64,000 bases of DNA, from NCBI GenBank assembly GCA_018402015.1, contig JAGYJL010000005.1, positions 7,499 through 71,498 on the forward strand, read 5' to 3'. Source of the stretch: Flavobacteriales bacterium. Its GTDB lineage: Bacteria; Bacteroidota; Bacteroidia; UBA10329. Shown piece by piece: positions 2,801 to 26,312 of the stretch. The position numbers and the translations under genes are program-made. Position 1 is the stretch's first letter. Each line of letters starts with the position of its first letter. The notes below the pieces were generated by a model. It did no database searches. It was given only the letters and a program-made list of their open reading frames with translations, and was not told the DNA's origin.

Positions 2801-3103
2801 GGTATCAAAGCTAATTATTGCTAAAAGCAATTATGAACAGAACATTGCCTAGGCCAATTAAAAAAATGTTAATCACTGTTTTGTTAATTACCGCGCGCTC
2901 ACGCGAAAGAAATTCGGGGCATTTCTATTGATTCAAATTTCAACCAGATAAGCAACTAGCGTAACCTTTCCTCTGGTCTTCTAAAGGCAGGTATTTGTAA
3001 ATCAGGCCTGCCTATTCCGTTTTCAGAGCAAACCGTAGGTCCTTATGGAATTCTCAAAATCGCTGCATCCAAAGGGAAAGTTTAACCTAAAAATTCTACA
3101 ATC

Positions 3104-4392
3104 ATGAAAACCCTAGCAGTTATTGTCATTACCGTTTCCACAACCCTTTTCGTTACGCTGTATTCCGCATTTCCTGAAAGATTTTCATTGCGGGAAACGA
3201 AACCCGAAAAAGGTTGTGTATTCAACTCCATGATGGGAATTGAAAGCACAGCAGATTATGCCAAGTACAAGACTCCCGATAAAGTGATGAGTTCTCTGGA
3301 GCACGGACTTGGATGGATTGCCGCTGCTCAGCACAAAGATGGCGGTTGGGGAGCTGGAAGTCACTACGAACAGCGTCAGATGAATCCGCATGCAGTGGCC
3401 TGATCCTGCTACAACTTCCCATGGTCGGTATGGCGTTGCTTCGAAACAGTAACACGACAGAAAAGGAATACAGCGCAACTCAGCAAAGCAGTCGGTACAT
3501 CTCTGACACAAGTGGAGACATCAAACCCGAATTCTCTCAATATCACAGAGTTGCAGAACACGCAGATTCAGACAAACTAGGGCAGAACATCGATGTGGTT
3601 CTCGCTTCTCAGTTCTTGACTAATTTGTTGGAGAAACTTCCAAAGAATCATCAGCTACGTGAGAGAATCAATAAAGCATTGAATGTTTGTGTAGTGAAAA
3701 TTCAGAAAGGACAAATGGCCGATGAGCACGCAAGGCGCAGGTTGGGCCGGTGTGTTGCAATCCTCACTTACGAGTAATGCACTCAAGCTGCAGAATTCGC
3801 GGGGGCAGATGTGGACCTGAAAAAACTGGAGCAGGCTCGCGACTATCAGAAAAGCAACTTTGATACGGAAACGGGAAATGTGAACACGGACAAAGGTGCT
3901 GGAATTGTACTCTACTCCGTCTCAGGTTCTGCAAGAGCAGCAGCAAAGGAAGCGCGCCAGACCCGCGAGCGACTGCAAGAAGCGGAGGAACAAGGGTTGA
4001 TCGATGATGTGAAAGATGTTTCGGCAGATGTGCTGCGAAAAATCGGCTTTTCTGAAGATGAAGCGATCAAAGCCGAAACGAGTTACAAGGTTTACGAAAG
4101 TGCCAAGCAAACTGCGCAGCGACAAGATGTGATGAGCGGTTTTGGAAACAACGGAGGAGAGGAGTTCCTGAGTTTCCTTCAAACCGGAGAAGGACTCGTT
4201 ATCGCCAAAGACAATTCTTGGAAGAACTGGTATGATGATATCTCAGGAAAGATGCTCCGAATTCAGAATCAGGACGGAAGCTGGAATGGGCATCATTGCA
4301 TCACAAGTCCTGTATTCTGCACGGCAACTTGCCTGTTGATTCTTTCAATCGAAAATGATATTCAAAATCTTCAACAGATGGGAGGGAGTTGA
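3104..4392 (+). pseudogene. Prenyltransferase / squalene-cyclase-repeat (terpenoid cyclase-like) protein, disrupted. Three ORF pieces, 3104-3403, 3313-3777 and 3811-4392, are joined by a frameshift near 3400 and an in-frame TAA at 3775.
   Basis: QxxDGGWG-type repeats (QHKDGGWGAG, QNQDGSWNG) are split across pieces. Frames: 3104 is mod 2; 3313 and 3811 are both mod 1, separated only by the TAA at 3775-3777. Confidence 0.5.
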
Positions 4393-4415
4393 TCTGGAGA
4401 AGTATAAGTGGTGTT

Positions 4416-4468
4416 CCGACCTTACGCATTGATTTAGTTAGACCAATGCAGAAGGTCGGGCTTTTTTT
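4416..4468 (+). terminator. Rho-independent terminator after the prenyltransferase-repeat gene
   Basis: A 16-bp imperfect stem ccgaccttacgcattg / caatgcagaaggtcgg is followed by cttttttt. Confidence 0.6.
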
Positions 4469-4585
4469 GCACGCAGCTTAAGGTCTTTAACAGTTCGTTA
4501 ACATGTTGGTCCTGGCCATGTTGGTACTTTCGGAACGGTAATTGAATAAAACCGAAAATCAACAAATAATTAATCTTAAATCATC

Positions 4586-5032
4586 ATGAAAAAAGCAATG
4601 TTACTTATGGCGATGGTCGTTGGATCTTTCGCTTATGTTACGGCTCAGGTAGCTGGTCCGCAGATCGAATTTGAAAGAGTAGAGCACGATTATGGTTCTA
4701 TTGATCAGGGCGGAGATGGCGCAACCGAATTCGTATTCACCAACACAGGTACAGAGCCGTTGATCATTTCTAAGGCAAAAGGTTCTTGCGGATGCACGGT
4801 TCCTGAGTGGCCGAAAGAGCCGATCGCACCAGGCGCTAAGTCTTCTATTAAGGTCAAGTACGACACAAAGCGTGTTGGTCCTATCAGCAAGTCTGTTACT
4901 ATTACTTCAAACTCTGTGGATAACAGCACCGCATTGTTGAAGATCAAAGGAACAGTTAACGCAGTTGCTAGCGAAGAAGATGCTCTTCCAGAGAGTAAAA
5001 CGATAGAAGGAGCAACTCCTGTTTCTGAATAA
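4586..5032 (+). CDS. DUF1573 domain-containing secreted protein
   Basis: 148 aa. It has a signal peptide and the conserved core GxxxxFxFTNTGTEPLIISKAKGSCGCTVPEWPKEPIAPG that characterises Bacteroidetes DUF1573 proteins. Confidence 0.8.
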   Translation: MKKAMLLMAMVVGSFAYVTAQVAGPQIEFERVEHDYGSIDQGGDGATEFVFTNTGTEPLIISKAKGSCGCTVPEWPKEPIAPGAKSSIKVKYDTKRVGPISKSVTITSNSVDNSTALLKIKGTVNAVASEEDALPESKTIEGATPVSE

Positions 5033-5057
5033 GAAAAGACGTTTTTATTGAATGAAA

Positions 5058-5086
5058 AGTCCCGATTATTGTCGGGACTTTTTTTA
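5058..5086 (+). terminator. Rho-independent terminator after the DUF1573 gene
   Basis: A perfect 8-bp stem agtcccga / tcgggact with loop ttattg is followed by T7 at 5080-5086. Confidence 0.65.
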
Positions 5087-5132
5087 TGCTCAAGAATCGC
5101 TGATGCCAAGACTCTCACTCAAGGGTAATCAA

Positions 5133-6304
5133 ATGCCCGAATCGCCAATTCGTAAATTGGTTCCGTATGCAACCGCTGCTAAAGCAAGAGGTATTAAAGT
5201 ATACCATCTCAATATCGGTCAGCCAGATATAGAAACCCCAGAAGTGGCGCTGACCGCTATAAGGAACATCGATCGCAAGGTTATTGAATACAGTAATTCT
5301 GAGGGTTATGCCACTTATCGAAGTGGTTTGGCCAAGTATTACCAAAGTGTGGGTGTTGATGTAGCGGATACCGACATCATGGTTACCACAGGTGGCTCAG
5401 AAGCATTGATCTTCGGCTTTATGACCTGCATGGATCCGGGAGATGAGATCATTATTCCCGAACCATTCTACGCCAATTACAATGGTTTTGCTACCATGGC
5501 GGGCCTTAATGTAAAGCCCATCACTGCTAAAATTGAAGATGGTTTTGCGCTGCCACCTATCTCTGAGTTCGAGCGAAGAATTACCGAGAATACTCATTGC
5601 CATTCGTCACTTATCTGTAACCCTGGAAACCCTACAGGAACATTATACGGAAAGGAAAGCCTTGAAGCCTTGGCCAAGTTGGTCAAGAAATACGACCTTT
5701 TTCTGTTTGCCGATGAGGTTTACCGCGAATTCTGTTACGATAGTGCCATTCCTTTTTCGTGTATGAATTTGGAAGGAATTGAGAATAACGTGGTAATGGT
5801 AGATAGCGTGAGTAAACGCTACAGTATGTGTGGTGCAAGAGTTGGTGCTTTGGTTTCAGAAACAAGGAAATGATGACCAACGCTCAAGTTTGCACAAGCC
5901 AGATTGAGTCCACCAACACTTGGGCAGATTGCTGGCGAGGCCGCATTAAACACACCTCAAGAGTATTTTGATCGGGTGAAGGAAGAATACATGCAGCGCA
6001 GAAATGTGCTGATCGATGGATTGAATGCCATTGATGGTGTGACCAGTCCAAAACCCGCTGGCGCATTTTACGCCATGGCACAATTGCCTGTAGAGAGTGG
6101 CGATGATTTCTGCCAATGGATGTTAGAGAATTCAGCTTCGAAGGAGAAACAGTGATGATGGCTCCCGGAAGCGGTTTTTATTCAACTCGTGCATACGGAG
6201 AGAAGCAAGTTCGAATTGCTTATGTACTTAAAGAAGAAGACCTTAAGAGATCGGTTAAGATCATTGAAGAAGGTTTGAAAGTCTACCCAAGGAGAACCAA
6301 CTAA
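5133..6304 (+). pseudogene. PLP-dependent aminotransferase class I/II (AspC-like), disrupted. There are two in-frame TGA TGA stops at 5871-5876 with compensating indels, and a frameshift near 6125.
   Basis: Aminotransferase motifs are present: PESPIRKL..., FLFADEVYREF, SVSKRYSMCGARVGALVS, then LSPPTLGQIAGEAAL, then ETVMMAPGSGFY. A +1-frame reading NKEMMTNA restores the expected sequence between the pieces. The true start is taken as MPESPIRK because the first 27 codons of the track ORF overlap the upstream terminator hairpin. Confidence 0.55.
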
Positions 6305-6350
6305 GGATAAAGCAAATACTTCTTACGAAGTGATCTTGAATGCATCGAGG

Positions 6351-7520
6351 TCAGATTGCCAGGAACCAACGATTTCTTCGATGGATTTTTCCAGCAATGA
6401 TCTGCTTTCTTAGTTCTGAAGAACCGGCCAGTTTGTCGAAGAAATCAGATTGGAAGAACTTGTTTTTTTCCGGGTAGTTCTCATAGGTTGATATGAGCCA
6501 ATCCAAGTTCAATTGCTTTAGGTTTCTGAGGCTGTCCAACGGCAACGAGGACAGGTCTATACCATTGCATTTCATCCCTTCAAATTTGGGATTTACAGCA
6601 ACTCCTTTAATGTCTTTGGGAGTGAAAGTGGTGTTTCCTTCAGGCATTTCAGGATAACCGAACTGCTGGAAAGGCTTATCCGTTCCACGGCCTTCGCTTA
6701 CAACCGTTCCTTCAAAAAAGCACAGACTCGGGTATAGATAAATAGCCTGCTGGTTAGGTAGATTGGGAGATGGGGCGATAGGCAATTCGTACGCATCATT
6801 TCGATCATAATCCATCATTTCAATGACGCTGAGTTCGCACTTTACACCATTTTTCAGCCAACCTTCCTCATTCACCATTTTGGCATATTCTCCAACCGTC
6901 ATTCCATGAACCACTGGAACCTCGTGCAAGCCTACGAACGATGAGAAGTCCTTCTGAAGAACCGGACCATCCACGTAATGCCCGTTCGGATTAGGGCGGT
7001 CGAGCACGATCAGTTGGATGCTATTCTCTGCACAGGCTTCCATCATGTAACTCATAGTACTGATGTAGGTGTAGAACCGTGCGCCTACATCTTGAATGTC
7101 AAAGATCACAACATCAAGACCTTGCAGTTGCTTGGCCGATGGCTTGTAATTGCTTCCATAAAGAGACATGATAGGCAGCCCTGTTTTCGGGTCTTTGCTA
7201 TCAGAGATCTTTGCGCCCGCACTTGCATTACCACGAAATCCGTGCTCAGGAGCAAATACGCATTTCACGTTTACGCCTAAACTCAAAAGTGTATCCACTA
7301 AATGGATCTTACCGACCACCGAGGTTTGATTGGCAACAATACCTACTGCTTTTCCTTCTATTCGAGGCAGGTATAAGTCTGTTCGCTGTGCTCCTAAAAC
7401 AAGCTGCTTCTGAATTTCTTCGATTGCTATGCCATCATTTGCTGGTGGTGGAGCAGGCACGGGTTGTCCGCAAGCAGAAAGCCACAGAACGGTAATGAGA
7501 TATTTGATAGTTTTAGCCAT
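6351..7520 (-). CDS. DUF1343 family exo-β-N-acetylmuramidase (NamZ/YbbC-like) lipoprotein
   Basis: Family-typical motifs: GIVANQTSV, VFAPEHGFRGN, DVVIFDIQDVGARFYTYISTM and RPNPNGHYVDGP. A lipoprotein-like N-terminus, MAKTIKYLITVLWLSACG, makes 7520 the likely start rather than 7556. Confidence 0.8.
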   Translation of the reverse strand: MAKTIKYLITVLWLSACGQPVPAPPPANDGIAIEEIQKQLVLGAQRTDLYLPRIEGKAVGIVANQTSVVGKIHLVDTLLSLGVNVKCVFAPEHGFRGNASAGAKISDSKDPKTGLPIMSLYGSNYKPSAKQLQGLDVVIFDIQDVGARFYTYISTMSYMMEACAENSIQLIVLDRPNPNGHYVDGPVLQKDFSSFVGLHEVPVVHGMTVGEYAKMVNEEGWLKNGVKCELSVIEMMDYDRNDAYELPIAPSPNLPNQQAIYLYPSLCFFEGTVVSEGRGTDKPFQQFGYPEMPEGNTTFTPKDIKGVAVNPKFEGMKCNGIDLSSLPLDSLRNLKQLNLDWLISTYENYPEKNKFFQSDFFDKLAGSSELRKQIIAGKIHRRNRWFLAI

Positions 7521-7556
7521 TATCCTTCGAGCACAAATCTCTTTCAAGGCAAGCAA

Positions 7557-8797
7557 TTGAACACACCTTTTTTTATTGCAAAACGCCTCATCCGAACAGA
7601 TGGGCGTGCCGAAAGTAGCAATATTTCAGGCACGCGGCCGATCGTGAGGATTGCCATTGCTGGCATTGCACTGGGATTAGCGGTTATGATCGTTTCCATG
7701 GCCATTGTTACGGGTTTTCAGAAAGAGATCACGGATAAAGTGGTCAATTTTGGTGCCGACATCATCATTACCGATTATTCCAATCTCAATGCCATAGAGC
7801 CACAGCCGGTTTCCAAAGAGCAGGACTTTTATCCAAGCCTAACGGAAATTGATGGCATACGACACATTCAGGTGTTTGCTACCAAAGCAGGTATTGTTAA
7901 AACAGACGAGGAAATTGAAGGGGTAGTTGTAAAAGGTGTTGGTAGCGATTTCGATTGGAGTTTTTTTCAGCGACACCTGATAGATGGGCAGGTTTTTGAA
8001 ACAACAGATAGTTCGCGCAGCAAGAATATTCTCATTTCAGAAAGTATCTCTAAGAAGTTGAAACTGAATGTTGGCGATAGAATGGAAGTGTTTTTCATTC
8101 AGGAAGAACGGCAGCGTGCGCGTGTATTTGATGTAACAGGAATCTATAAAACAGGCTTGGCGGAGTATGACGAACGATATGTAATTACTGATATTACACA
8201 TATTCAACGGCTCAATGGTTGGAGTTCGGATCAAGTTGCGGGCTTCGAAGTTTTCGTAGACGATTTTGGAGATTTGGATGAGTTGGAAGATGTGGTTTAC
8301 CACAGTATTGGTAATGACCTTTATTCGGCAACGGTAAAAGATCTGCAACCACAGATATTCGATTGGCTCGATCTTCAGGATATGAACGTAAGGGTTATCA
8401 TCATTCTGATGCTCGTAGTAGCAGGCTTCACACATGATTTCTGCTTTGCTCATCTGGTCATTGAGCGCGTTTATAATGATTCAGAACTCTGAAATCGCTT
8501 GGAATGAACGATGGAAACATACGTAACATCTTCATCTATCAAGCACTGTATCTAACGGGTGTTGGTCTGTTCTGGGGTAATCTGGTCGGAATTCTACTAT
8601 GCCTTATTCAAGATCGATTCGGCCTCGTCACTTTGGATGAAGCCAGCTATTACGTAAAAGTTGTTCCCATCAATTTAGACATCGCACACATTCTTCTGCT
8701 CAACACGGGTACGCTGTTCTTCTGCTTTCTAATGTTGCTTTTGCCTTCTATGGTGGTTTCCCGAATTCAGCCGCTCAAGGCCATTCGTTTCAACTAG
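7557..8797 (+). pseudogene. LolC/LolE-type FtsX-family ABC permease (lipoprotein release), disrupted by several frame changes around 8430-8500. The likely start is TTG at 7557.
   Basis: The N-terminal piece 7464..8492 carries FFIAKRLIRTDG, TGFQKEITDKV and DGQVFETTDSS. The C-terminal piece 8504..8797 carries GMNDGNIRNIFIYQALYLTGVG. The expected MISALL and VIERV segments appear in two different frames between the pieces. There is no ATG after the upstream gene; an in-frame TTG lies at 7557. Confidence 0.5.
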
Positions 8798-9600
8798 GCG
8801 TTCTGCCCGAACCAACGGTCAAGTAGATCGCGGAGCCGCTTTGGCGAAACCTCGTATTCCAATTCGCCTTCGTGCGTCACAGAAATATTCCCTGTTTGTT
8901 CCGAGACTACGATGGCTATGGCATCTGTGGTTTCCGATAATCCAACAGCAGCTCGGTGGCGCATGCCCAAATGAGCAGGAAACTCATCATCATCTGTTAC
9001 CGGAAGCACGCATCGCGCAGCTTTTATTCGATTGCCAGAAATGATCACGGCTCCATCGTGCAGCGGACTGTTCTTGTAGAAGATGGATTCAAGTATCTTG
9101 GCAGAAACCTCCGCATCAACCTTTTCGCCCGTATTGAGATAGAACTGCAGATTGCTTTCTCGACTGATGACAATAATGGCACCCGTTGCTTCCTGCGCCA
9201 TGTTCAAACATGCAGACACGATTGCGCTAATGTTCAACGTTTCAGCTGTACTGAAAGTCCGTTTCAGGTTCAGCCATTTTAGCGGTGAACTTTTTCCACT
9301 CATGAATCCGGTGGTTCCGATCAGTAGCAGAAAACGCCTCACTTCCTGCTGAAAAACAACGATCAACGCCAGAACTCCCACGCCAATGAACTGTCCGAGT
9401 ATCGAACCTAGTAATTGCATGTTAAGCGCTCTTACCAGCAACCAAAGCAAGTAAAGAGAAAGAATTCCTAGAAAGATATTGATGGCTGCTGTGCCACGAA
9501 CCAGATTGTAAAGTTGATAAAGCAATATGGCCACAATGAGGATGTCTAAGGCATCCAACCAGCGGAAGGTGATAAAACCTAAAACTACATCTGCCAACAT
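8794..9600 (-). CDS. cdaA: Diadenylate cyclase CdaA (c-di-AMP synthase, DisA_N domain)
   Basis: Three N-terminal transmembrane helices are followed by the DAC domain, with DGAVIISGNRIKAARCVLPV and GMRHRAAVGLSETTDA. Confidence 0.85.
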   Translation of the reverse strand: MLADVVLGFITFRWLDALDILIVAILLYQLYNLVRGTAAINIFLGILSLYLLWLLVRALNMQLLGSILGQFIGVGVLALIVVFQQEVRRFLLLIGTTGFMSGKSSPLKWLNLKRTFSTAETLNISAIVSACLNMAQEATGAIIVISRESNLQFYLNTGEKVDAEVSAKILESIFYKNSPLHDGAVIISGNRIKAARCVLPVTDDDEFPAHLGMRHRAAVGLSETTDAIAIVVSEQTGNISVTHEGELEYEVSPKRLRDLLDRWFGQNA

Positions 9601-9711
9601 GGGTATGCTTTCTGCTAAAACGCGAATTGCCCAAAATTAGCGTAATCAGCGGGACTCCTGTCAAAAGTCAGTTGACGACCGAGGCATTCAGTTTACTTCG
9701 TAGCACAGGAA

Positions 9712-10530
9712 ATGGAAGAAGACAACTTCGAATTATTTGATCCAAAAAAGGCGCAGAAGTTGGCTCAGGTCGTGCTTCCAATTGCTGAAACGTACCATCG
9801 GGCTAAATGGCTGGGGTTGGAGAACATACCAGATGAGGTCTTCTTGGGAGTTGGTAATCACACCGGCATGCACTTTATGCCAGAATCGGTGTTGTGGGTT
9901 GCAAAATATCAGGTCAAAGAAAGGCCTGTTGCTATGCTTACGCTGATTCATCATATGACGCATCGTATCGCCAAATTGCTCAACTTCCCTGTAAATGAGT
10001 TGGGACTGTTGGAAGCGAACCGTCAGAGTGCCTTGGATGCGCTTAAAGCCGGATATGCTGTAACCGTTTATCCGGGTGGTGATAGGGATGTTGCTAGGCC
10101 TTTTTCAGATAGGAACAATATCAATTTCTTCGATCATTTAGGTTACGTGAAGACCGCGCTGAAGGCTCAGGTTCCTATTCTTCCTATTGTTGGCTGTGGA
10201 GGTGGAGAAACACTTTTTGTGCTCAATTCTGGCGAAAAGTTTGCCGAATTCACCGGACTCAAGAAGTTCGCTAAGGTGCACACATGGCCGTTGTACTGGT
10301 CGTTTCCATTCGGGTTTCATTGGGGGCATTTTCCGCATTTTGAATTGCCGCTTCCCTCGCAAATGACCATGAGTGTGCTACAGCCGTATTACCTGAATGA
10401 TCACTCTCCTGAGGATGCCGAAAATCCGGAAGTGGTGAGTGCGATTAACGAGGAGATCATTTACCGGATGCAAAAGGAATTGGACCGGATCTCGAAAGGA
10501 AGACTACCCGTTATTGGGAAGTTGTTCTGA
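9712..10530 (+). CDS. Lysophospholipid/glycerol-3-phosphate acyltransferase-family protein (PlsC-like)
   Basis: 272 aa with GNHTGMHF and VYPGGDRD motifs. Family assignment is moderate and the substrate is unknown. Confidence 0.55.
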   Translation: MEEDNFELFDPKKAQKLAQVVLPIAETYHRAKWLGLENIPDEVFLGVGNHTGMHFMPESVLWVAKYQVKERPVAMLTLIHHMTHRIAKLLNFPVNELGLLEANRQSALDALKAGYAVTVYPGGDRDVARPFSDRNNINFFDHLGYVKTALKAQVPILPIVGCGGGETLFVLNSGEKFAEFTGLKKFAKVHTWPLYWSFPFGFHWGHFPHFELPLPSQMTMSVLQPYYLNDHSPEDAENPEVVSAINEEIIYRMQKELDRISKGRLPVIGKLF

Positions 10531-11308
10531 AAAAAGCAGCGAATTTCTTGGGTGTATCCGTATTGATGAAGTCAATACCCATGGCACGGAAAGTTTCCCA
10601 CGCGCTCGGGTGATCGGGAGATGCCCAAAGACGGAGTTTCTTGCCTTCAGCATGCACCTTTGAAATAAGTTTTCTGAGTTTCAACTGTTCGTCCTCGGGC
10701 ATTTCTCCTTTACCGTTCCACGAAAGATGGTTCTTGTAATGATCGCTGATTACGGGCATCACATCAGCAGAAATCTGCTTGCCAAAATCGCTGGGTCGTC
10801 CATCCAAAAAGGCCAGTTTCGGTTCGGCATTCAGAACCGCATCTGTGGGTCTTCCTCCCGAAAGGAAAACCGTGACGGCTCCCTGTTTCAGTTCACCATT
10901 TTCCACGGTGGTCAGCATGGATCGATACTTTTCCAATAGTTGTATCAGTCGATCGAATGTTTCTTTGCCGTGTCCCTTAAAATCGATCATCAGGTAAAAC
11001 GGCCCATCATAATTCGGATAAACCTTGCCGCCATTTTTCTGAACGTGCTCAAAAAGAGGTTTCAGGTACAGATTCTCTAGCGAACGTTTCTTATTTCTAC
11101 CCAACGGCCGAACGTGCGCCACATACAGGTCGCCTTTCATGAAATGCACATCTGCTTCTAAGGAAATCAGCTTGGCATCCAACGCTTCAAAAAGCGCAGG
11201 TTTGTTCAGGTAATCGTTGTGTGCGTGACCGGGAATGACCGTTTGGGCAAATGAAGGGAAAACGAAAAAGGAGAAAACGAAAAAGGAGATTGCGGCTAAG
11301 CGTTTCAT
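10511..11308 (-). CDS. Secreted PI-PLC-X / glycerophosphodiester phosphodiesterase-like protein
   Basis: The signal peptide MKRLAAISFFVFSFFVFPSFA is followed by HAHNDY near the mature N-terminus, the catalytic-His motif of the PLC-X/GDPD superfamily. Confidence 0.55.
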   Translation of the reverse strand: MKRLAAISFFVFSFFVFPSFAQTVIPGHAHNDYLNKPALFEALDAKLISLEADVHFMKGDLYVAHVRPLGRNKKRSLENLYLKPLFEHVQKNGGKVYPNYDGPFYLMIDFKGHGKETFDRLIQLLEKYRSMLTTVENGELKQGAVTVFLSGGRPTDAVLNAEPKLAFLDGRPSDFGKQISADVMPVISDHYKNHLSWNGKGEMPEDEQLKLRKLISKVHAEGKKLRLWASPDHPSAWETFRAMGIDFINTDTPKKFAAFFRTTSQ

Positions 11309-12000
11309 TTCTTGGTGGCGGTTAGTGAATAAACCAATGGAAGTTTATTTCCGTGTTTCTCAATGATGAATTTTCGGTCGGCCAATTGCTTCATTCCCGA
11401 AAAACAGTTGTAGGGCGAATAATCGAATTCGTCAAAGCTTTTCAGAATCAGGCCATTGTTCTCCAGTGCGTGGAACACTTCTGCTAACCCATGGTTCCAA
11501 CTAATCTCTGTTTTCTCAAATTCAGCATCGGTAGCAGCATACGTGCCGGTGGTTGTTTCAATGATCGGTTCGTCTTTGAAATAGCGGTATTCGATTTTCA
11601 AACGCATCATCAAAACATCCACACCACAGGGTGAAATTCCACGAAAACGAGTTTGCCGCCAGGTTTCAGATGATACGAAATGGTTTCGGCCCACTTGTTC
11701 AAATCAGGCAGCCAGCCAATGGTTCCGTAGGAGGTGAAAACGATGTCGGAATTGCTTTTCAATTTGCCGTTCAGTTCAACACGTACGTATCCTCGCCACA
11801 AATTCAGCATTCAAAGCCAACTCCTCATTCAGTTTCTGTGCTTGCCGCGGTAAGCGAAGATTCAGCGCCAACCACATCAGCACTCATTCGTGCTAACGAA
11901 GCGTATCCCTGACCGAAATGGCATTGCAGATGGAGAATGGATTTTTCCTTGCACATCTCAAGCAACGCCAATTCAATTCATTCAAGCTATGATTTACCCG
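11305..12000 (-). pseudogene. Class I SAM-dependent methyltransferase, disrupted. Pieces 11305-11694 and 11610-11810 lie in different frames, and a degraded motif-I region sits further upstream.
   Basis: Pieces ...LKPGGKLVFVEFHP... and ...KIEYRYF...LILKSFDEF.... The minus-strand translation near 11850-11900 gives CHFGQGYASLARMSADVVGAESS, a frameshifted GxGxG motif-I region. Confidence 0.4.
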
Positions 12001-12129
12001 CTTTCCAAGCTTCTACATCATAGAATTCTGAAGCTAAATGCGCTGAAACGCGTTTGTTTCAGAAAAAATCTCGGTTTGTTGATTATTCCCATCATTTCAC
12101 CTAATTCCACTGCTTCTTTTACGTCATAA

Positions 12130-12930
12130 GACCCGCAAAATATCAACTCCATTTTGGCAGTTGGCAGTTCACTTCAATCGTTCCTTAAGGTCTGCTCGGG
12201 CGTTTCACCATACTTTAAACGAATCATGCTTTGAAACACCAGCAAAGGGCTTTCCGAAAATGGCAAATCAGAAAGGTGTTCCGCCATCTCATAGTTCTGA
12301 TCCCAAAAGTTTTTCAAAGCCGAAACCGGGGTCAATGATCGCATCATTCACGCCTTGATTTACCAAATCAGGAACGCGTTGCGCGAAGAAGGAAAGCACT
12401 GAGCATGATTGGTCTTTGCTCTAAATTCTTCTGCATGGTTTGGGGCGTACCTTTCATGTGCATGCAGATGTAAAGCAAGAATTTGTAACAACAACGGGTA
12501 ATTCCTTATCCAAATTTCCACCAGAAATATCGTTGATGATGTGCGCGCCAACTTCCATCGCCTTTTAGACGGCAGAACGGAAGATCTGGCCAGAGATAAG
12601 CGCTTCGGAAAACGAGTGACGATTGCCCTACAAGCGATGGAATCATCCGGTTTTAGCTCTTCTTCTTTAAATGTCTTCTGCTCCAAGGTCGACTGCTGTA
12701 AGCACCCAAGGTCGAATATCCTGCACCTTCGTTCAGCATTTGTTCAGCGTATTTCAAGCAGCATCCACGGAATTAAACTTTCCGCCATCAGAAAAACTGT
12801 CAGGCGTTGAGTTCCAGAATACCCATTACAATTGGGTGGTCTATGGTAACCAACAGCCCTCTGCAATTCAGGGTTTACTCTTGCTCAAAGGTTATTTTTA
12901 CCACTCATCCAAGAGCCGAAGTTAAGGGTT
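12130..12930 (-). pseudogene. folP: Dihydropteroate synthase (folP) remnant, heavily frame-disrupted
   Basis: Minus-strand translation gives VNDAIIDPGFGF (DHPS DPGxGFxK motif) around 12290-12330 and HLSDLPFSESPLLVFQSMIRL (PLLVGxSRKSxI region) around 12200-12250, in different frames. No ORF longer than 110 aa exists here. Boundaries are approximate. Confidence 0.45.
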
Positions 12931-12938
12931 CAGTACCG

Positions 12939-13491
12939 ATGTCAGATACCAACGCACAATACGATAAGGCGCTTGCCGAATACCGCAGCGAAATTTTCGT
13001 TGGCAAGATGAAAGACTATGGCGCTTCGTGGCGCATTTTCCGTCCGTCATCAATTACCGATCGAAACTATTCATAAGGCCAATCGCATTCACCCAGTTTG
13101 GAAGAAAAGGCGTGAGCAAGTAAGGAGGGCATCTATCCTGAATACATCGGTCAGTTAATTATTCCATCGTAGTCGTATTCAGTTGGAGCATGGACATGCA
13201 GATGAACCCGATCTGAATTTGGAAAGAGCCATTGCATGGTACGATCAGTACGCTGCAGAAGCTAAATCATTGATGGAAAAGAAGAATCATGACTATGGCG
13301 AAGCTTGGCGCGATATGCGCGTAAAGTCGCTGACAGATCTAATTCTTGTTAAAATTCTTCGCATTAAAGAGATGGAAGATAACCAAGGACAGAGCGAACT
13401 TTCCGAAGGAATTGATGCTAATCTGTACGATATGATCAATTACTCGATTTTTGCGTTGATTAAACTTGGTGAGACCAAGGCATCGGTATGA
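12939..13491 (+). pseudogene. DUF1599 domain protein (two internal repeats), disrupted between the repeats
   Basis: First repeat: MSDTNAQYDKALAEYRSEIFVGKMKDYGASWRIFRPSSITD, then a stop. Second repeat in ORF 13183..13491: AIAWYDQY...DYGEAWRDMRVKSLTDLILVKILRIKEME...INYSIFALIKL. In my recollection of Flavobacteriia synteny this family sits next to folP. Confidence 0.5.
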
Positions 13492-13541
13492 CCTTGTCAG
13501 TTCTTACCGAAGATTAAATTTGCTATTCAAACCCACTTAAA

Positions 13542-14831
13542 ATGAAATTGATAACCGATATCTCACGCTATTTTGTTGGAGTGCTTTTTATCTTTTCTGG
13601 AATTGTAAAGGCCAACGATCCGCTAGGATTCAGCTACAAATTGGAGGAGTATTTTGAGGAATTTGCCAAGTTGGGCGAGTACTGGGGTTTTCTGGAAACG
13701 TTCTTTCATTTCTGCCACGATTATGCTTTGCCTCAGGCCATTTTCATCGTTATTCTAGAAGTGGTTTTAGGTGTGGCTATTCTGGTTCGTTTTAGAACAA
13801 GACTAACAGCCACACTTCTTTTGTTGCTCATTGCATTCTTTACAGCTCTCACCTTTGCATCGGCCTATTTCGGTATTGTAAAAACCTGTGGATGTTTTGG
13901 CGATGCTATTCCACTTACTGCTTGGGAGAGCTTTTACAAGGACGTGATCCTGTCGGTTTTCATCCTCATCATTTTTGTTCGTCAGAAGAAGATCAGTATC
14001 TCCGAAACAGGCATGAACGATTTCGTGCTAGCTGGAGTTGGTTCTCTTGTAATGCTGAAGCTTTCTTACGACCTCGAATGGTTTTTCCCTTTCTGGTTTG
14101 TGGTTTCCACTTTCACGGCATTCTTTCTTATCCGTCTGGTTGAGCACAGAAAAGCGCCTTTTTTCATTACCATGCTGGCTACGGTTGCTATGAGTTTCTT
14201 CACTTTTTACACCTACAGTTATCTACCGGTCAAAGATTTCCGTGCGTACGCTGCAGGTAAGAGTATTGCTGAACAAATGGAAGGCGTTCCGGATAAATTG
14301 AAGTACTACTACATATTGAAGGACAAGGAAACAGGTAAGGAACAAGAGTTCGAAAAATTCCCTGAAAACTATCAGGAGAAGTACGAGTATGTAGATTCTC
14401 GAACAGAAGTAATTGAAAAAGGAGTTGAACCGAAGATCATGGATTTCTCTATCATGTCTGCAGAAGGAGAAGACCTTACCGAGGACTTTCTGATGAGCGA
14501 GAGTTTTACTTTCCTCGTTATCTCAAATGACCTTACAAAAGCTATGGAGCAGCCACAACAGCGAATTAATGATCTGGCCAAATCGCTGCAGGATAAAGGC
14601 TACCGAGTGGTTGGACTTACTGCCAGCACGCCACTTGTTGCTGTTGATTTTGCTCAACGTAATGGCAATCCTTTCAACTATTTGTTCTGCGATCAGATCG
14701 TACTGAAAACCATCATCCGTTCAAATCCAGGATTGATGTTGATCAAAGACGGAAAGGTTTACGGAAAATGGCATTACAACGACCTTCCTGAATTACAGGT
14801 GTTGGAATTGGAATACCTGAACAGAGATTAA
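13542..14831 (+). CDS. DoxX-family membrane protein with a C-terminal thioredoxin-like/BT_3928-type domain
   Basis: The N-terminal ~200 aa carry 4-5 TM helices (FVGVLFIFSGIVKANDP...), typical of DoxX. The C-terminal soluble domain has a TlpA-like layout. Confidence 0.55.
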   Translation: MKLITDISRYFVGVLFIFSGIVKANDPLGFSYKLEEYFEEFAKLGEYWGFLETFFHFCHDYALPQAIFIVILEVVLGVAILVRFRTRLTATLLLLLIAFFTALTFASAYFGIVKTCGCFGDAIPLTAWESFYKDVILSVFILIIFVRQKKISISETGMNDFVLAGVGSLVMLKLSYDLEWFFPFWFVVSTFTAFFLIRLVEHRKAPFFITMLATVAMSFFTFYTYSYLPVKDFRAYAAGKSIAEQMEGVPDKLKYYYILKDKETGKEQEFEKFPENYQEKYEYVDSRTEVIEKGVEPKIMDFSIMSAEGEDLTEDFLMSESFTFLVISNDLTKAMEQPQQRINDLAKSLQDKGYRVVGLTASTPLVAVDFAQRNGNPFNYLFCDQIVLKTIIRSNPGLMLIKDGKVYGKWHYNDLPELQVLELEYLNRD

Positions 14832-15908
14832 TTGGTCTCTTACGTCATACGGAAACTGCTCTACAGCTTTTCGGTGCTGTTCGGTATCGTTACCGTTGTA
14901 TTTCTTCTTTTCACAGCGCTTCCTGGCGATCCTGCCAGATTGATGCTCGGTCAACGGGCCGATCAATCGGAGGTGGAAATGATACGCAAGGATCTGGGGT
15001 TGGATCTACCACTTATTACACAGTATCTAGTTTATCTCAACGACCTGTCGCCACTTTCATTTTACAATCATCTCGATGAAAATAGTCCGTACTATTTTGA
15101 ATCTACCGAGCACGAACGATCGAAAGTGATCTTGAGTGGTGATAATGCCAATTTTGTTCTCAAAGCACCTTATCTCAGAAGGTCGTATCAATCGCAACAG
15201 ACCGTTACGGCCATTGTAATGGAAGCGTTACCAGGAACAGCGGTGCTGGCGGTAACAGCCATTACCATTGCAACAGTTCTCGGCATTCTGTTCGGAATAA
15301 TCGGAGCACTTTTTAAAGGACAATGGCCCGATAAATTGCTAATGATCTTCTCCATTTTTGGAATGAGTCTACCATCATTTGTAGCCGCCATTCTCATTAT
15401 GTGGGTTTTTGCGTATTTACTTGGTAGTATCACTGGCCTGGAAGTAACCGGAAGTCTGTATGTGATAGATGAATTTGAGGGCAGAAAAATCGTACTTAAG
15501 AATCTGATTCTGCCGGCCATCACATTGGGTGTTCGACCATTGGCTGTTTTCATGCAATTGACCCGTAACTCCATGCTCGAAGTACTTTCTATGGATTATG
15601 TGCGCACCGCAACGGCAAAAGGTCTTTCCTTCAGAACAGTGGTGATGAAACATGCTCTTCGTAATGCGTTGAATCCAGTGATCACAGCTATTTCAGGTTG
15701 GTTGGCTTCTTTGTTGGCCGGAGCCGTGTTCGTAGAGATCGTTTTCGGATGGAAAGGCCTTGGTCTGATCATGCTTAACGCACTGAATACCTACGATCTA
15801 CCGGTTGTAATGGGCTGCATCATTCTGGTTGCGGTGATCTTTGTGGTCATTAACATGTTGGTTGATGTGCTCTATGGTATATTTGACCCGCGCGTTAGCA
15901 TGTCGTAA
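14832..15908 (+). CDS. ABC transporter permease (Dpp/Opp-type, BPD_transp_1)
   Basis: Six TM helices and an N-terminus FTALPGDPARLMLGQRADQSEVEMIRKDLGLD typical of DppB/OppB permeases. The start abuts the DoxX stop. Confidence 0.8.
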   Translation: MVSYVIRKLLYSFSVLFGIVTVVFLLFTALPGDPARLMLGQRADQSEVEMIRKDLGLDLPLITQYLVYLNDLSPLSFYNHLDENSPYYFESTEHERSKVILSGDNANFVLKAPYLRRSYQSQQTVTAIVMEALPGTAVLAVTAITIATVLGILFGIIGALFKGQWPDKLLMIFSIFGMSLPSFVAAILIMWVFAYLLGSITGLEVTGSLYVIDEFEGRKIVLKNLILPAITLGVRPLAVFMQLTRNSMLEVLSMDYVRTATAKGLSFRTVVMKHALRNALNPVITAISGWLASLLAGAVFVEIVFGWKGLGLIMLNALNTYDLPVVMGCIILVAVIFVVINMLVDVLYGIFDPRVSMS

Positions 15909-15984
15909 AACGAAAAATGAAAAAGGGAAGAATGTGTCTGGGTGCCCGTTTTTCTTTTTCTCATTTTTCCTGTAAACTGTTTGA

Positions 15985-16731
15985 ATGAGAGATAAGATCG
16001 TTGCCGGAAATTGGAAAATGAACCTCACCAAAAATGAGGGTCTGTTGTTGATAGAAGGCGTTGTGAATGGAGTTGTAAATTCAGATGTGAAGGTTATTCT
16101 GGCTCCTCCGTTTCCGTTTATTTCTGACGCGGTTTTGGGTCTTTCATCCAGCAAGATCAAGGTAGCAGCTCAAAACTGCCATCAAGAAGAGAGTGGCGCA
16201 TTTACTGGCGAAGTCTCTGCGGCAATGCTGCGTTCTTTCGGTGCGGAATATTGCATTGTCGGTCACTCGGAGAGACGAGAATATTTGAAAGAAGATGACC
16301 AGCTCATCAACCGCAAGATACAGCGCTTGATTTCACATGGAATCATACCAATATTCTGTTGTGGAGAATTATTGGAGGAGCGTGAGTCTGATCGTCAATT
16401 TGAGATTGTAAGTGATCAGATTCAATCTGCGTTACAAGGCTTCAATAAAGATGAGTTGAAGAATATTATCATTGCCTATGAACCCGTATGGGCAATTGGT
16501 ACCGGAAAAACGGCCACACCTCAACAGGCACAGGAAATGCATGCATTCATCCGCGAAAAACTGTCTGAGGTTCTGTCTGAAAATGCGGAGGAAGTTTCCA
16601 TCCTTTATGGTGGAAGCGTAAAACCGGAAAACGCCCGAGAACTCTTCGCTCAAAAAGACATTGATGGCGGCCTTATTGGTGGCGCATCGCTCAATGCACC
16701 CGATTTCTTAGCAATCATACAATCTTTCTAA
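15985..16731 (+). CDS. tpiA: Triosephosphate isomerase
   Basis: IVAGNWKMN, CIVGHSERR, AYEPVWAIGTGKTAT and GGSVKPENA. Confidence 0.95.
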   Translation: MRDKIVAGNWKMNLTKNEGLLLIEGVVNGVVNSDVKVILAPPFPFISDAVLGLSSSKIKVAAQNCHQEESGAFTGEVSAAMLRSFGAEYCIVGHSERREYLKEDDQLINRKIQRLISHGIIPIFCCGELLEERESDRQFEIVSDQIQSALQGFNKDELKNIIIAYEPVWAIGTGKTATPQQAQEMHAFIREKLSEVLSENAEEVSILYGGSVKPENARELFAQKDIDGGLIGGASLNAPDFLAIIQSF

Positions 16732-16732
16732 T

Positions 16733-17566
16733 ATGGCACACGCAGTGCTTACAATCACGGTCAGTCCTACAGACTTAGGACGCGACCTACTCATTTCCGA
16801 ACTGGCAGATATTGGATTTGAAGGTTTTCTTGAAACAGATGAAGGCGTAGACGCTTACATCGAAGAAGCTGAACTTGATATCAACGAGGCTGAGGAGGTT
16901 TTTGCGCGACTTCGTACAGCAGAATTCGAGGTTTCATACACCAGTTCAGTTGCCGAGGATAAGAACTGGAATGAAGAATGGGAAAAGAATTTCGATCCTG
17001 TAGAGATAAAAGACCTGTGCCGGATCCGTGCTCCATTTCACGAATCGAAAAGCGGTTTCAAGGAAGAGATCATCATTATGCCTAAAATGTCGTTCGGCAC
17101 CGGCCATCATGCTACTACTTCCATGATGGCGGAATACCTCATGACCACCAAAGTGGAAGGACCGCTTTTGGATATGGGGTCTGGAACAGCTGTGCTGGCC
17201 ATTCTTGCCCGCAAGCTTGGTGTAGAGGATATTGACGCCATAGATATTGACGATTGGGCATTTGAGAATGCTCCCGAGAATTGTGCACTCAATAACATGG
17301 ATGATATCATTATCCTTCAGGGAGATGCCAGTCTGCTTGGCAATAAACAATACAATACGGTTCTCGCCAATATCAACAGAAATGTGCTGTTGGAGGATAT
17401 TCCGGTTTACGCCAGCATCCTTAACCAGAACGGCCAACTTTTTGTAAGTGGATTTTATACCGAAGACCTTAACATGATACGTGATGTAGCTCAAAAAGCA
17501 GGTCTTATCTTTAACGGAAATCTGACAAAAGACAATTGGGTCTCGGCCCGATTCATCAAACAATAA
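16733..17566 (+). CDS. prmA: Ribosomal protein L11 methyltransferase
   Basis: FGTGHHATT and LDMGSGTAVLAILARKLG. It starts 1 nt after the tpiA stop. Confidence 0.9.
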   Translation: MAHAVLTITVSPTDLGRDLLISELADIGFEGFLETDEGVDAYIEEAELDINEAEEVFARLRTAEFEVSYTSSVAEDKNWNEEWEKNFDPVEIKDLCRIRAPFHESKSGFKEEIIIMPKMSFGTGHHATTSMMAEYLMTTKVEGPLLDMGSGTAVLAILARKLGVEDIDAIDIDDWAFENAPENCALNNMDDIIILQGDASLLGNKQYNTVLANINRNVLLEDIPVYASILNQNGQLFVSGFYTEDLNMIRDVAQKAGLIFNGNLTKDNWVSARFIKQ

Positions 17567-17567
17567 C

Positions 17568-20500
17568 ATGAAGAAATTCCTCTTTCTACTAGCAGTAATA
17601 GTTACAGCCTCTGCTGGTATTTCATCGGCACAACAGCTTAAGTCGTTTACCCACGATAACGAGAAGTACATTCAAGAACTTCAGGATTTCTTCGCACAAG
17701 GCGATCCCAAAGCAGCTAAGAAGTTGATTGAGGAAACGTTTCTGCCCGTTTGGAACAGCGGACATTACAGCACGCAGCAGAAAGAGCGTGTTTATACCAT
17801 GTCCGACCTGATGTTGAAAGAGAAGAAAAAAGCGGTCGATTTCGAGAACTACCTGTACGCCCTCATGAGCTTTGCAAAAAGTATGAAGCCTGCATCCGAT
17901 TTCGATGCATTTCATGACGGTATGGAACAGACCATTCAGAAACTTTCCAGAAAGGGATTTACCAGTTATCTGGAAGTGTGTAGAGGCCTTTTTACCGAGT
18001 ACATTCTATTTGAATCGCCTGCAGTAAAATGGGTGGCAAAGTTCGATGCGTATAAGATCCAGTTCGATTCTTTACCGAAGATCGTTTTCGGAAAACTTGA
18101 CCTCAAAGCCTATTCAAAGCGCGATAGTTCGGTCATTTATGGAACCGAAGGTGTTTATTATCCAACCATTACCAAATGGGTCGGAAAAGGTGGAAAGATC
18201 GATTGGAGACGAGCAGGTTTCGACCCGAATAAGACCTACGCGGAGATTGACAATTATGTATTGAATACAACCAAATCTCAGTACGAAATAGACTCCGTAA
18301 CATTCCATCATCCCGATTATCTCGACCGTCCGCATATCGGAAAACTGACCGAGAAAATTCTTGCCGATGTGGATACTTCAGATGCTTCCTATCCTCGTTT
18401 CGACTCATACGATAAACGCATCGTTATTGAGAACATGTACAAGGACATCGATTATTCTGGTGGCTTCTCTCAGCACGGAGTCAAGTTTATCGGTTCAGGT
18501 GATGATGAGCAGAATGCTACGCTCATCTTCCGTAAGATGAACCACATCACCAAAGAGAACGAACCATTTATGGAAGCGCGCTCCAAGTCATTCGTTATTA
18601 GGCCAGAGAAGATCCTTTCCAAGAAATCGGAGATAGCTATGTACTATGAGGGAGATTCGATCTATCATCCCGGTCTACGTTTGAATTATAACGTTGAGAA
18701 TCATGAAGTAACGCTTAGTAAGGAAAGTGAAGGCTCGGGTCGGAGCCCGTTTTTCGATAGCTACCACAAGGTAGATATGCACGTAGATGAGATAAAGTGG
18801 AACATGGTTCAGGATTGGATGGATCTGGCCAACACCACTGGTGGCGCAGAAAGTAGTGCGCTGTTCGAGTCTGAGACCTATTACGATGAGTACCGCTACG
18901 ACCGCATTCGTGGCACTGCAGACACACATCCATTGTGGAAGATCCGGAACTACGCCAAGGAGATTGGAATGGAAGAGCTGACCGTAGAGCAAGTTGCACG
19001 CTTGTTCAAGGCGGATATAAGTGAGACCAAAGTGTTCCTAATGAACCTGTCCAACTCGGGTTTCATGACCTATAATTACGATAAGGAAATAGTGGTGATC
19101 AAACCGAGATTGCATCATTATGTGCTCTCTCGATCGCGGAAAACCGATTATGACATTCTTCAGTTCGAATCGACCATTGAAGGGTTGCCGAACGCGAAGC
19201 TCAATCTGTTGAATTGGGATATGGACCTCAATGGGGTAGGCAGAGTTTTCCTTTCAGATTCTCAGAACGTGGTCGTTTTCCCTTACGAACAAGAATTGAC
19301 GCTTAAAAAGAACCGTGATTTCTCGTTTGATGGAAAGGTTATCGGTGGTCGTTTAGACTTCTTTGGTCATGACTTTTACTTCAGCTACGATGATTTTAAG
19401 ATCAATCTTAATAAAGTCGATTCAATTCGTTTGAAAGTGCCAGATGGCGAGCCGGACGAAAATGGAAGGCAGAAACTGCGCGCTGTAAAAACCGTGCTTC
19501 GCGATCTGAAAGGAGAGCTCTTGGTGGATAGACCTGATAATAAATCAGGTCTCGTGGATCATCCGCGCTACCCGGTGTTCAATAGTACAGACGATTCGTT
19601 CGTATACTATGACAAACGCTCCATTCAGGATGGTGCGTACAAGAAGGAATCGTTCTACATGCACCTCAAACCATTCAGTATCGATAGTTTGGAGAACTTC
19701 ACCAAAGAAGGTCTGGCCTTTGGTGGAACCTTTGTCTCGGCAGGTATTTTCCCGGACTTTGAGGAAACCCTCACACTACAGCCCGACTTCTCGCTCGGTT
19801 TTGTTCGAGAAACACCACCCGAAGGTCTAGACATGTATGGAGGCAAAGGAAACTACAAGGCTACCATTAAACTCAGTCATGACGGTTTGCGTGGAGACGG
19901 TGATCTGGAGTATTTGACCTCGGTTTCCAAGTCAGATGATTTCATATTTTACCCCGATTCGGTGAACGGAGTTGCACAGGATTTTACCATAACCAAGCAG
20001 AAAAGCCCAACTGCTTATCCGCCAGTGGTGGGTAAAGATGTTCGGGTGCATTGGATGCCTAAGTTGGATCACTTCTATTCGTACAAGATCGATAACGCCT
20101 TTGATATGTACGAAGGCGAAGTGGCACATCATGGAGGCTTGGATCTCTCACCAAAAGGTTTGGATGGTTTCGGAAATCTCGATTTTGCGGATAGCTACAT
20201 GCGGTCTAACAGATTCAACTTCGATTACCGCGATTTCCATGCCGACACGGCCGATTTCAAGTTGAAAGGAAAGTCAGAGACATCCTACGCGTTTAAGACA
20301 AGTAACGTGCAAATGGATGTCAACCTCGATGATAGGAAGGGTAAGTTCAAATCCAATACGGGGGGCGATTACGTAGATTTTCCGGTTAACCAATACATCT
20401 GTTATATCGATGAGTTCGTTTGGAACATTGATGCTAAGGATATTGATGTCGTTTCCGATGGAGAAGGCTCGCGTTACGTAAGTACAAACCCAAAGCAAGA

Positions 20501-22092: not shown

Positions 22093-22104
22093 CAGCAAAA
22101 GGAA

Positions 22105-26298: not shown

Positions 26299-26312
26299 TC
26301 GACCCCATAGTG

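What the first reader, a model, noticed from the sequence alone, without database searches (positions are those of the whole stretch)
3104..13491. Six frame-disrupted conserved genes are confined to a 10 kb stretch while flanking genes are intact
Within 3.1-13.5 kb, six genes need frameshifts or stops to be read: a prenyltransferase-repeat protein, an aminotransferase, LolE/FtsX, a SAM methyltransferase, folP and DUF1599. Some need several per gene. Examples are a compensating +1/-1 pair around TGA TGA at 5871-5876, three frames within 80 bp at 8430-8500, and folP motifs in different frames. Genes interleaved with them are intact: amt, SIMPL, DUF1573, NamZ, cdaA, the acyltransferase and GDPD. 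Genes between 13.5 and 64 kb also appear intact, including ORFs of 4.4-4.9 kb. This means either a localised low-quality assembly patch or a genuine hot-spot of gene decay that hits normally essential functions (folP, lolE).
Basis: seen in the sequence. Interest (0 to 1): 0.55.

Follow-up and report, generated by a model that had tools for sequence, protein, structure and literature searches.

The report
Local indel errors in an assembly
The broken genes are real in this sequence, but they come from about 57 tiny insertions and deletions packed into four short patches that no other assembly of the same species shares, so this is almost certainly an unpolished low-quality stretch of a hybrid long-read/short-read assembly and not gene decay.

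Summary
Flanking genes are intact.

The damage is not spread over 10 kb. Compared with contigs of the same species from at least 8 other metagenomes (93-98% identity, all genes intact), the window has 57 private indel events of 1-6 nt, and 52 are not multiples of 3. All lie in four patches:
- 3397-3790
- 5591-6390
- 8431-8480
- 11594-13180 (40 events)

There are none in the 6.95 kb between the patches, none in 13181-19580, and none in 1-2818. Patch edges fall inside genes. Substitutions in folP and the methyltransferase remain third-position biased, and gap events equal or outnumber the excess substitutions.

Three short contigs from run SRR14300309 match the window perfectly over 4.7 kb. The only exceptions are three differences at 3724-3785, where that contig has the intact allele. 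That run belongs to the Lake Shunet project, which built genomes with metaFlye, Pilon, quickmerge and Unicycler from roughly Q11 Nanopore reads plus Illumina reads.

Verdict: residual long-read consensus error in a hybrid assembly, not a biological feature. Low interest.

The parts
3397..3790 (.). Error patch A. It holds 6 private indel events (net -10 nt), including -2 at 3397, +1 at 3418, -5 near 3467, -1 at 3572, -2 at 3724 and -1 at 3783, plus short out-of-register runs.
   Evidence: Multiple alignment with conspecific contigs. L091, from the same sample as two 100%-identical contigs, differs from the window only at 3724, 3770 and 3783-5.
3104..4392 (+). Gene for a 432-aa protein with a weak alpha/alpha-toroid (squalene-hopene-cyclase-like) match. 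It is broken by patch A.
   Evidence: It is split into three ORFs. It is intact at 432 aa in L084, L085, L086, L089 and L090. The intact homologue hits Pfam SQHop_cyclase_C at E=2.9e-4, below the curated cut-off. Length difference to L084 is -10 nt.
5591..6390 (.). Error patch B. It holds 7 private indel events: +1 and +5 at 5597-5610 (net +6, in frame), -1 at 5857, -2 at 5880-5883, -1 at 6127, +1 at 6336 and +1 at 6386.
5052..6304 (+). Class I/II aminotransferase gene, broken by patch B. A short out-of-frame stretch at 5857-5883 contains TGA TGA, and the C-terminal ~60 codons are shifted after 6127.
   Evidence: Pfam Aminotran_1_2 matches two ORF pieces. The gene is intact at 416 aa in relatives and conspecifics. 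Frame-corrected translation is 99.0% identical to L084.
6301..7556 (-). NamZ gene. Its last ~27 codons are replaced by the +1 at 6386.
   Evidence: The window C-terminus reads ...IIAGKIHRRNRWFLAI*, against ...IIAGKSIEEIVGSWQSDLDAFRSLRKKYLLYP* in the conspecific. The window ORF is 401 aa against 417 aa.
8431..8480 (.). Error patch C. It holds +1 at 8431, -1 at 8454 and +2 at 8476, all within 50 nt.
7686..8797 (+). LolE/FtsX-type permease gene, broken by patch C. The last ~100 codons are in another frame.
   Evidence: MacB_PCD and FtsX domains fall on separate ORFs. The gene is intact at 369 aa (431 aa stop-to-stop) in all relatives.
11594..13180 (.). Error patch D. It holds 40 private indel events (net -20 nt) of 1-6 nt, about one per 40 nt. 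Its edges lie inside the methyltransferase and DUF1599 genes.
   Evidence: The 3' 290 nt of the methyltransferase (11305-11593) and the 3' 310 nt of DUF1599 (13181-13491) have no indels.
11305..12095 (-). SAM-dependent methyltransferase gene. Its N-terminal two thirds are riddled with indels.
   Evidence: The gene is intact at 263 aa in L082 and L084, with Methyltransf_25/11/12 hits. In the window only fragments are left.
12092..12908 (-). folP (dihydropteroate synthase) gene, with roughly 20-35 indel events depending on alignment scoring. It is the most damaged gene.
   Evidence: Alignment. The intact 278-aa conspecific protein hits Pterin_bind at E=1e-77. tblastn matches fall in three frames. 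Length difference to L084 is -20 nt.
12939..13491 (+). DUF1599 gene. Its first half is broken (8 events between 12985 and 13176) and its second half is clean.
   Evidence: The gene is intact at 183 aa with two DUF1599 repeats in L084.

Best explanation
The frame disruptions are consensus errors of the assembly, not mutations of the organism. The window most likely comes from a hybrid Nanopore-plus-Illumina metagenome-assembled genome. Most of the contig has short-read accuracy. Four stretches (about 390, 800, 50 and 1590 nt) were filled from low-depth, noisy long reads and were never corrected, for example as long-read bridges between short-read contigs or as places that short-read polishing did not reach. 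Those stretches keep the typical long-read error profile of many 1-6 nt deletions and insertions with few substitutions. That profile shreds whichever genes lie under them and leaves everything else intact.

Shown: the indels are private to this assembly, patchy, indel-dominated, and contradicted by an independent contig of the same strain. Inferred: the technical route, meaning which assembler step left them.
For: 1. Private to this assembly. Conspecific contigs from at least 8 other runs or assemblies (SRR23031620, SRR24948432, SRR23967296, ERZ28593999, SRR12180203, ERR4869777, JGI 3300043376, ERZ21966605) carry all the genes intact. Species-level relatives do too.

2. Same-strain test. Three Logan contigs of run SRR14300309 are identical to the window: L001 at 1761/1761 nt, L102 at 1270/1270 nt, and L091 at 1673/1676 positions. 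L091's only differences are a 2-nt gap, one substitution and a 1-nt gap at 3724-3785, where L091 has the intact reading frame.

3. Patchiness. There are 57 private indel events, 52 of them not multiples of 3. All lie in four patches, with zero in the 6953 nt between them, zero in 13181-19580 and zero gaps in 1-2818. Patch edges fall inside genes, so a dead gene would be half riddled and half pristine.

4. Error spectrum. In 12150-12599 there are 9 indels but a normal substitution rate. Many apparent substitution runs are out-of-register stretches between paired indels. With gap-friendly scoring, folP and methyltransferase substitutions stay third-position biased ([6,15,33] and [8,10,33]) alongside 35 and 26 gap events. 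Events are 33 deletions and 24 insertions, and only 12 of the 33 single-base events lie in runs of 3 or more.

5. Provenance. SRR14300309 belongs to PRJNA721826 (Lake Shunet). The authors assembled Nanopore reads of mean quality ~10.6-11.6 with metaFlye, polished with Pilon, merged with MEGAHIT contigs using quickmerge, and reassembled with Unicycler. They themselves note that long-read assemblies carry numerous indel errors that break ORFs (PMC8382752).
Against: - No reads were available, so coverage and read support at the patches were not seen directly.
- It is not proven that the window was assembled from the Lake Shunet data. Only an identical strain is shown to be present in one of its runs.
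- For patches B, C and D no same-strain independent contig was found. No exact GDPD product is on record, and the closest folP proteins differ by strain.
- folP and the methyltransferase show a modest excess of first- and second-position substitutions. Relaxed selection would also produce that, although long-read errors and misalignment next to indels explain it too.
- Patch A's errors at 3724-3785 lie inside the span of short-read contig L091, so polishing should in principle have been able to fix them.
Confidence: 0.9

Rival explanations
1. Genuine strain-specific gene decay. This strain has really lost the 432-aa gene, the aminotransferase, NamZ's tail, lolE, the methyltransferase, folP and DUF1599, perhaps tolerated through second copies or folate salvage.
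For: The genes cannot be translated as written. folP and the methyltransferase show about twice the usual rate of private changes at otherwise invariant sites, spread evenly over codon positions in the MAFFT alignment. Deletions slightly outnumber insertions at 33:24, as in bacterial pseudogenes.
Against: - The same-strain contig L091 has the intact allele, while 4.7 kb of same-strain sequence shows no other difference.
- Decay should affect a dead gene along its whole length. The last 290 nt of the methyltransferase, the last 310 nt of DUF1599, most of lolE and most of the aminotransferase are untouched.
- Three events within 50 nt in lolE, and pairs within 25-60 nt elsewhere, do not look like independent neutral mutations.
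- Gap events equal or exceed the excess substitutions. From general knowledge, natural decay gives several substitutions per indel.
- Frame-corrected proteins are still 92-99% identical to conspecifics.
- No paralogue lies in the window.
Confidence: 0.05
2. A consensus that mixes co-occurring strains. Several strains 93-98% identical coexist, and the assembler or polisher stitched their reads into a mosaic with spurious indels where they differ most. This is still an artefact, but it arises from strain heterogeneity and not from low depth.
For: - Many strain variants of this species exist in public data.
- The window's folP shares some variants with P0003/P0004 and others with P0002.
- Patch A lies next to a strain-variable island at 2819-3061, where many short-read contigs end.
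Against: - Collapsing strains that differ almost only by substitutions should give substitutions, not 57 small indels. Conspecific contigs differ from each other with essentially no indels in these genes.
- Outside the patches the window matches one strain perfectly.
Confidence: 0.04
3. Recoding, meaning programmed ribosomal frameshifting or stop read-through that still yields full-length proteins.
For: Some indels come as compensating pairs that restore the frame: -1/-2 at 5857/5883, +1/-1 at 8431/8454, and -2/-1 at 3724/3783.
Against: - No orthologue or conspecific shares any of the shifts.
- There are up to 20-35 shifts in one 817-nt gene.
- The net shifts per gene are not multiples of 3.
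Confidence: 0.01

Closest known systems
Residual indel errors in long-read or hybrid (Nanopore plus Illumina) assemblies that fragment genes into apparent pseudogenes
   Same: - Small, non-triplet insertions and deletions with few substitutions.
- Genes split into adjacent ORFs that match one intact orthologue.
- Sharp transitions between accurate and inaccurate stretches.

The problem is described by the authors of the project that holds the identical strain (PMC8382752) and is the subject of correction tools such as Kastor (PMC12007338).
   Different: Here the errors are confined to ~2.8 kb in four patches of an otherwise clean contig of at least 64 kb, not scattered genome-wide. Only about a third of the single-base events lie in homopolymers of 3 or more.
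Pseudogene accumulation in bacteria undergoing genome reduction (for example Mycobacterium leprae or recent host-restricted symbionts; from general knowledge)
   Same: Several neighbouring conserved genes carry frameshifts and stops. There is a slight excess of deletions.
   Different: Real decay is shared by all sequences of the strain, affects dead genes along their whole length, and comes with many more substitutions than indels. None of these holds here.
Programmed frameshifts (prfB, dnaX, IS element transposases; from general knowledge)
   Same: A gene must be read in two frames.
   Different: Programmed sites are single, conserved among orthologues and have slippery motifs. Here the shifts are many, private and lack a common motif.

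Membership tests
Assembly/consensus indel artefact (uncorrected long-read sequence in a hybrid assembly) | The differences are absent from independent assemblies of the same strain or species | tested here: met
   All conspecific contigs have intact genes. The same-sample contig L091 carries the intact allele at 3724-3785 while being otherwise identical.
Assembly/consensus indel artefact (uncorrected long-read sequence in a hybrid assembly) | The error spectrum is dominated by small indels, not substitutions | tested here: met
   There are 57 indel events of 1-6 nt. Bins 12150-12599 hold 9 indels with a normal substitution rate. Substitutions stay third-position biased.
Assembly/consensus indel artefact (uncorrected long-read sequence in a hybrid assembly) | Errors occur in blocks whose limits ignore gene boundaries | tested here: met
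   There are four patches. Patch edges lie inside the methyltransferase, DUF1599, lolE and aminotransferase genes. P(no event between the patches | uniform placement) = 2e-31.
Assembly/consensus indel artefact (uncorrected long-read sequence in a hybrid assembly) | Reads show low depth or disagree with the consensus at the affected positions | not testable with these tools
   No read data are accessible. The only link is that the identical strain occurs in run SRR14300309 of a Nanopore plus Illumina hybrid-assembly project.
Genuine bacterial pseudogenes (gene decay) | Disruptions are fixed in the strain, meaning present in every independent sequence of it | tested here: not met
   L091, from a sample holding the 100%-identical strain, lacks the two indels and the substitution of patch A that it overlaps. 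Patches B-D could not be tested with same-strain sequence.
Genuine bacterial pseudogenes (gene decay) | Relaxed selection along the whole dead gene: substitutions lose their third-position bias and greatly outnumber indels | tested here: not met
   The third-position bias is kept. Gap events equal or exceed the excess substitutions. Large parts of the broken genes are pristine. A modest first/second-position excess in folP and the methyltransferase is the only supporting sign.
Genuine bacterial pseudogenes (gene decay) | Loss of an essential function is compensated by a second copy or a salvage route | tested here: inconclusive
   No second folP or lolE lies in the 64 kb window. The rest of the genome is not available.
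Programmed frameshift / recoding | The frameshift site is conserved in orthologues | tested here: not met
   None of the shifts occurs in 4-7 species-level relatives or in the conspecific contigs.

The most novel reading that the evidence does not exclude
The indels are real. One strain suffered bursts of clustered small insertions and deletions, for example from error-prone repair synthesis around DNA breaks. These inactivated seven neighbouring genes, including folP and lolE. The intact alleles seen in the same lake sample would then belong to a sister subpopulation identical elsewhere.
Probability: 0.03. Interest if true: 0.6.

Novelty: not a real feature. Interest (0 to 1): 0.05.

Why it matters
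As biology it does not matter. There is no evidence that this organism has lost folP, lolE or the other genes.

Its practical value is as a quality flag:
- Annotation of this contig will report 7 false pseudogenes.
- Completeness and metabolic reconstructions (folate synthesis, lipoprotein export) for this genome would be wrong.
- The stretch 3.1-13.5 kb should be re-polished or masked before any comparative use.

Had it been real, a strain-specific burst of clustered indels that destroys essential genes would have been an unusual mutational event.

Tried and rejected
1. Exact-product look-ups for amt (753-2075), GDPD (10511-11308), the 240-aa protein at 35525-36247 and the MORN protein at 26214-27086 found nothing on record. 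As a result, no same-strain contig was obtained next to patch D, and none covered 20-47 kb.

2. A homologue search with the conspecific folP found intact proteins of several strains (P0001-P0004, P0024). None was the window's own strain variant.

3. Two scans of JGI metagenome contigs used patterns that accept both the broken and the intact allele of patch C and of 5857-5883. Both returned nothing. They did not even return the JGI contig known, so the negatives are uninformative.

4. I first read the 41% tblastn identity of folP, and the doubled rate of private changes at invariant sites, as possible real decay. Inspection of the alignments showed that most of this comes from out-of-register stretches between indels.

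5. A possible further frameshift at the overlapping MORN ORFs (25744-27086) was rejected, because each ORF has its own signal peptide.

6. The ORF-poor stretch 62248-64000 has no tRNA or Rfam match and was not pursued.

7. A duplicated, decaying second copy of the region was considered. It was rejected because synteny continues without a break past 13.2 kb, and the clean stretches are identical to the same-strain contigs.
Full report
**What is in the sequence.** ORF listing and three-frame translation show that six conserved genes between 3.1 and 13.5 kb are split over two or three frames.

Pfam places the two halves of an aminotransferase on ORFs 5052-5873 and 5904-6155. It places the MacB_PCD and FtsX domains of a LolE-type permease on 7464-8492 and 8504-8797. 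Methyltransferase and DUF1599 fragments fall on small ORFs, and folP leaves nothing recognisable.

The interleaved genes DUF1573, cdaA, an acyltransferase and a GDPD-like gene are intact, as are amt and SIMPL to the left and everything to the right.

**Orthologous loci.** A scan of species-representative genomes with CdaA returned syntenic loci from uncultured Flavobacteriales (L002-L010; CdaA 78-90% identical).

In L003 and L005 the same gene order runs from DUF1573 to beyond the MauE-like gene. Every gene that is broken in the window is one intact ORF there, and more relatives give the same result.

At DNA level the broken genes are as similar to the relatives (73-81%) as the intact ones (75-79%). 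However, they carry 9-24 gap openings per gene, against 0-2 in the next two genes.

Gene-by-gene alignments list window-private 1-6 nt indels in the five broken genes that have orthologues in these loci. None appears in the MauE and cdaA controls.

**Conspecific contigs.** Exact-product look-ups with CdaA, DUF1573 and SIMPL retrieved contigs of the same species (93-98% nt identity) from many independent metagenomes.

All of them encode the genes intact: 432 aa, 416 aa (aminotransferase), 417 aa (NamZ), 369 aa (LolE), 263 aa (methyltransferase), 278 aa (folP, Pterin_bind E=1e-77) and 183 aa (DUF1599).

I aligned the window (3000-19700) with twelve of these contigs. Counting only states seen in no other sequence gives 57 private indel events: 33 deletions and 24 insertions. 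Sizes are 1 nt (33 events), 2 nt (14), 3 nt (4), 4 nt (1), 5 nt (4) and 6 nt (1). Fifty-two are not multiples of three.

One event lies at 3094, in the intergenic stretch just upstream of the first patch. The other 56 fall in four patches:
- **A**, 3397-3790: 6 events
- **B**, 5591-6390: 7 events
- **C**, 8431-8480: 3 events
- **D**, 11594-13180: 40 events

There are no events in 3791-5590, 6391-8430 or 8481-11593, none in 13181-19580, and no gaps at all against L095 over 1-2818.

Under uniform placement the empty inter-patch stretches have probability 2e-31. Mapped onto L084, the affected genes differ in length by -10, +2, +2, +2, -1, -20 and +1 nt. The unaffected ones differ by 0.

**Real decay or error?** Four lines of evidence bear on this.

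1. *Patch edges ignore genes.* The methyltransferase is riddled in its first two thirds but clean in its last 290 nt. DUF1599 is riddled in its first half and clean in its last 310 nt. lolE has three events within 50 nt and none elsewhere. A gene that has died decays along its whole length.

2. *The spectrum is indel-dominated.* Bins 12150-12599 hold 9 indels at a normal substitution rate. The bins with many apparent substitutions are stretches thrown out of register between neighbouring indels, as the alignments show. With gap-friendly scoring, substitutions against L084 remain third-position biased in folP ([6,15,33]) and the methyltransferase ([8,10,33]). That matches intact neighbours, alongside 35 and 26 gap events. 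From general knowledge, natural decay yields several substitutions per indel. Long-read consensus errors show the reverse.

3. *Frame-corrected translations stay close to conspecifics.* They are still 92-99% identical to the conspecific proteins.

4. *The same-strain test, the most direct.* Three short contigs assembled independently (Logan) from run SRR14300309 match the window at 1761/1761 nt (13488-15248), 1270/1270 nt (47734-49003) and 1673/1676 positions (3679-5351). The only differences in the third are a 2-nt gap at 3724, a substitution at 3770 and a 1-nt gap at 3783-5. That is exactly the part of patch A it overlaps, and there it carries the intact frame. Three changes within 60 nt against none in 4.6 kb cannot be ordinary divergence.

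**Provenance.** SRR14300309 is listed in the data statement of a study of Lake Shunet (PRJNA721826). That study assembled Nanopore reads (mean quality about 10.6-11.6) with metaFlye and polished them with Pilon using Illumina reads. It then merged them with MEGAHIT contigs using quickmerge, polished again, and reassembled bins with Unicycler. The authors state that long-read assemblies contain numerous indel errors that break ORFs (PMC8382752).

I infer, but cannot prove, that the window comes from such a hybrid assembly. On that reading the four patches are stretches taken from low-depth long-read consensus (bridges or splice segments) that short-read polishing did not repair. This would explain the sharp edges, the sizes (50 nt to 1.6 kb) and the perfect sequence elsewhere.

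One loose end remains. The errors at 3724-3785 lie within the span of short-read contig L091, so they were in principle correctable.

**Rivals.**
- *Genuine strain-specific decay* is supported only by a modest excess of first- and second-position changes in folP and the methyltransferase. The same-strain contig, the within-gene patchiness and the spectrum all contradict it.
- *A mosaic consensus of co-occurring strains* is a variant of the artefact reading. It fits the strain diversity seen. It does not explain why strains that differ almost only by substitutions would yield 57 indels.
- *Programmed frameshifting* is excluded by the lack of conservation and the sheer number of shifts.

**Rest of the window.** Between 19.6 and 64 kb there are unbroken ORFs of up to 1629 aa, several of them PKD/CHU_C type IX secretion cargo proteins. 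The only suspicious ORF overlap (MORN proteins, 25744-27086) is two genes, each with its own signal peptide. The only RNA gene is a tRNA-Arg at 22019-22093. No conspecific contig was obtained for 20-47 kb, so intactness there rests on ORF continuity alone.

**Verdict.** The feature is a sequence-quality artefact and not a biological one. Confidence is about 0.9 and interest is low.

Noticed in passing
window 2819-3061: This 243-nt linker between SIMPL and the 432-aa gene occurs in no conspecific contig. Other strains carry 1.6 to ~5 kb here, either a 357-aa gene or sigma-70/FecR/TonB-receptor-like genes, and many short-read contigs end at this point. It is either a strain-variable island in its shortest form or a chimeric join of the assembly. 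The error patches start just to its right.
   Followed up: partly
These change its last ~27 residues and shorten the ORF from 417 to 401 aa.
   Followed up: yes
window 5594-5610: There is a private 6-nt in-frame insertion (+1 and +5) in the aminotransferase, with a local rise in private substitutions. It may be another small error block or a real two-codon insertion.
   Followed up: no
window 27167-48217: This is a run of very large secreted proteins with PKD repeats and C-terminal CHU_C type IX secretion signals (1629, 1165, 1416 and 1122 aa). One has an N-terminal L-type lectin domain and one a DUF7948 domain.
   Followed up: no
window 17568-21986: This 1472-aa ORF has no Pfam match at E<=1e-4. 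It is conserved in the conspecific contig L082.
   Followed up: no
window 62248-64000: This stretch has few ORFs of any length (the longest is 132 aa, with no Pfam hit) and no tRNA or Rfam match. It was not compared with relatives.
   Followed up: no
window 12092-12908 (folP) compared with P0002-P0004: After frame correction, the window's folP shares variant residues with strains P0003/P0004 in its middle part and with P0002 near its C-terminus. This suggests recombination among strains or a mixed consensus.
   Followed up: no
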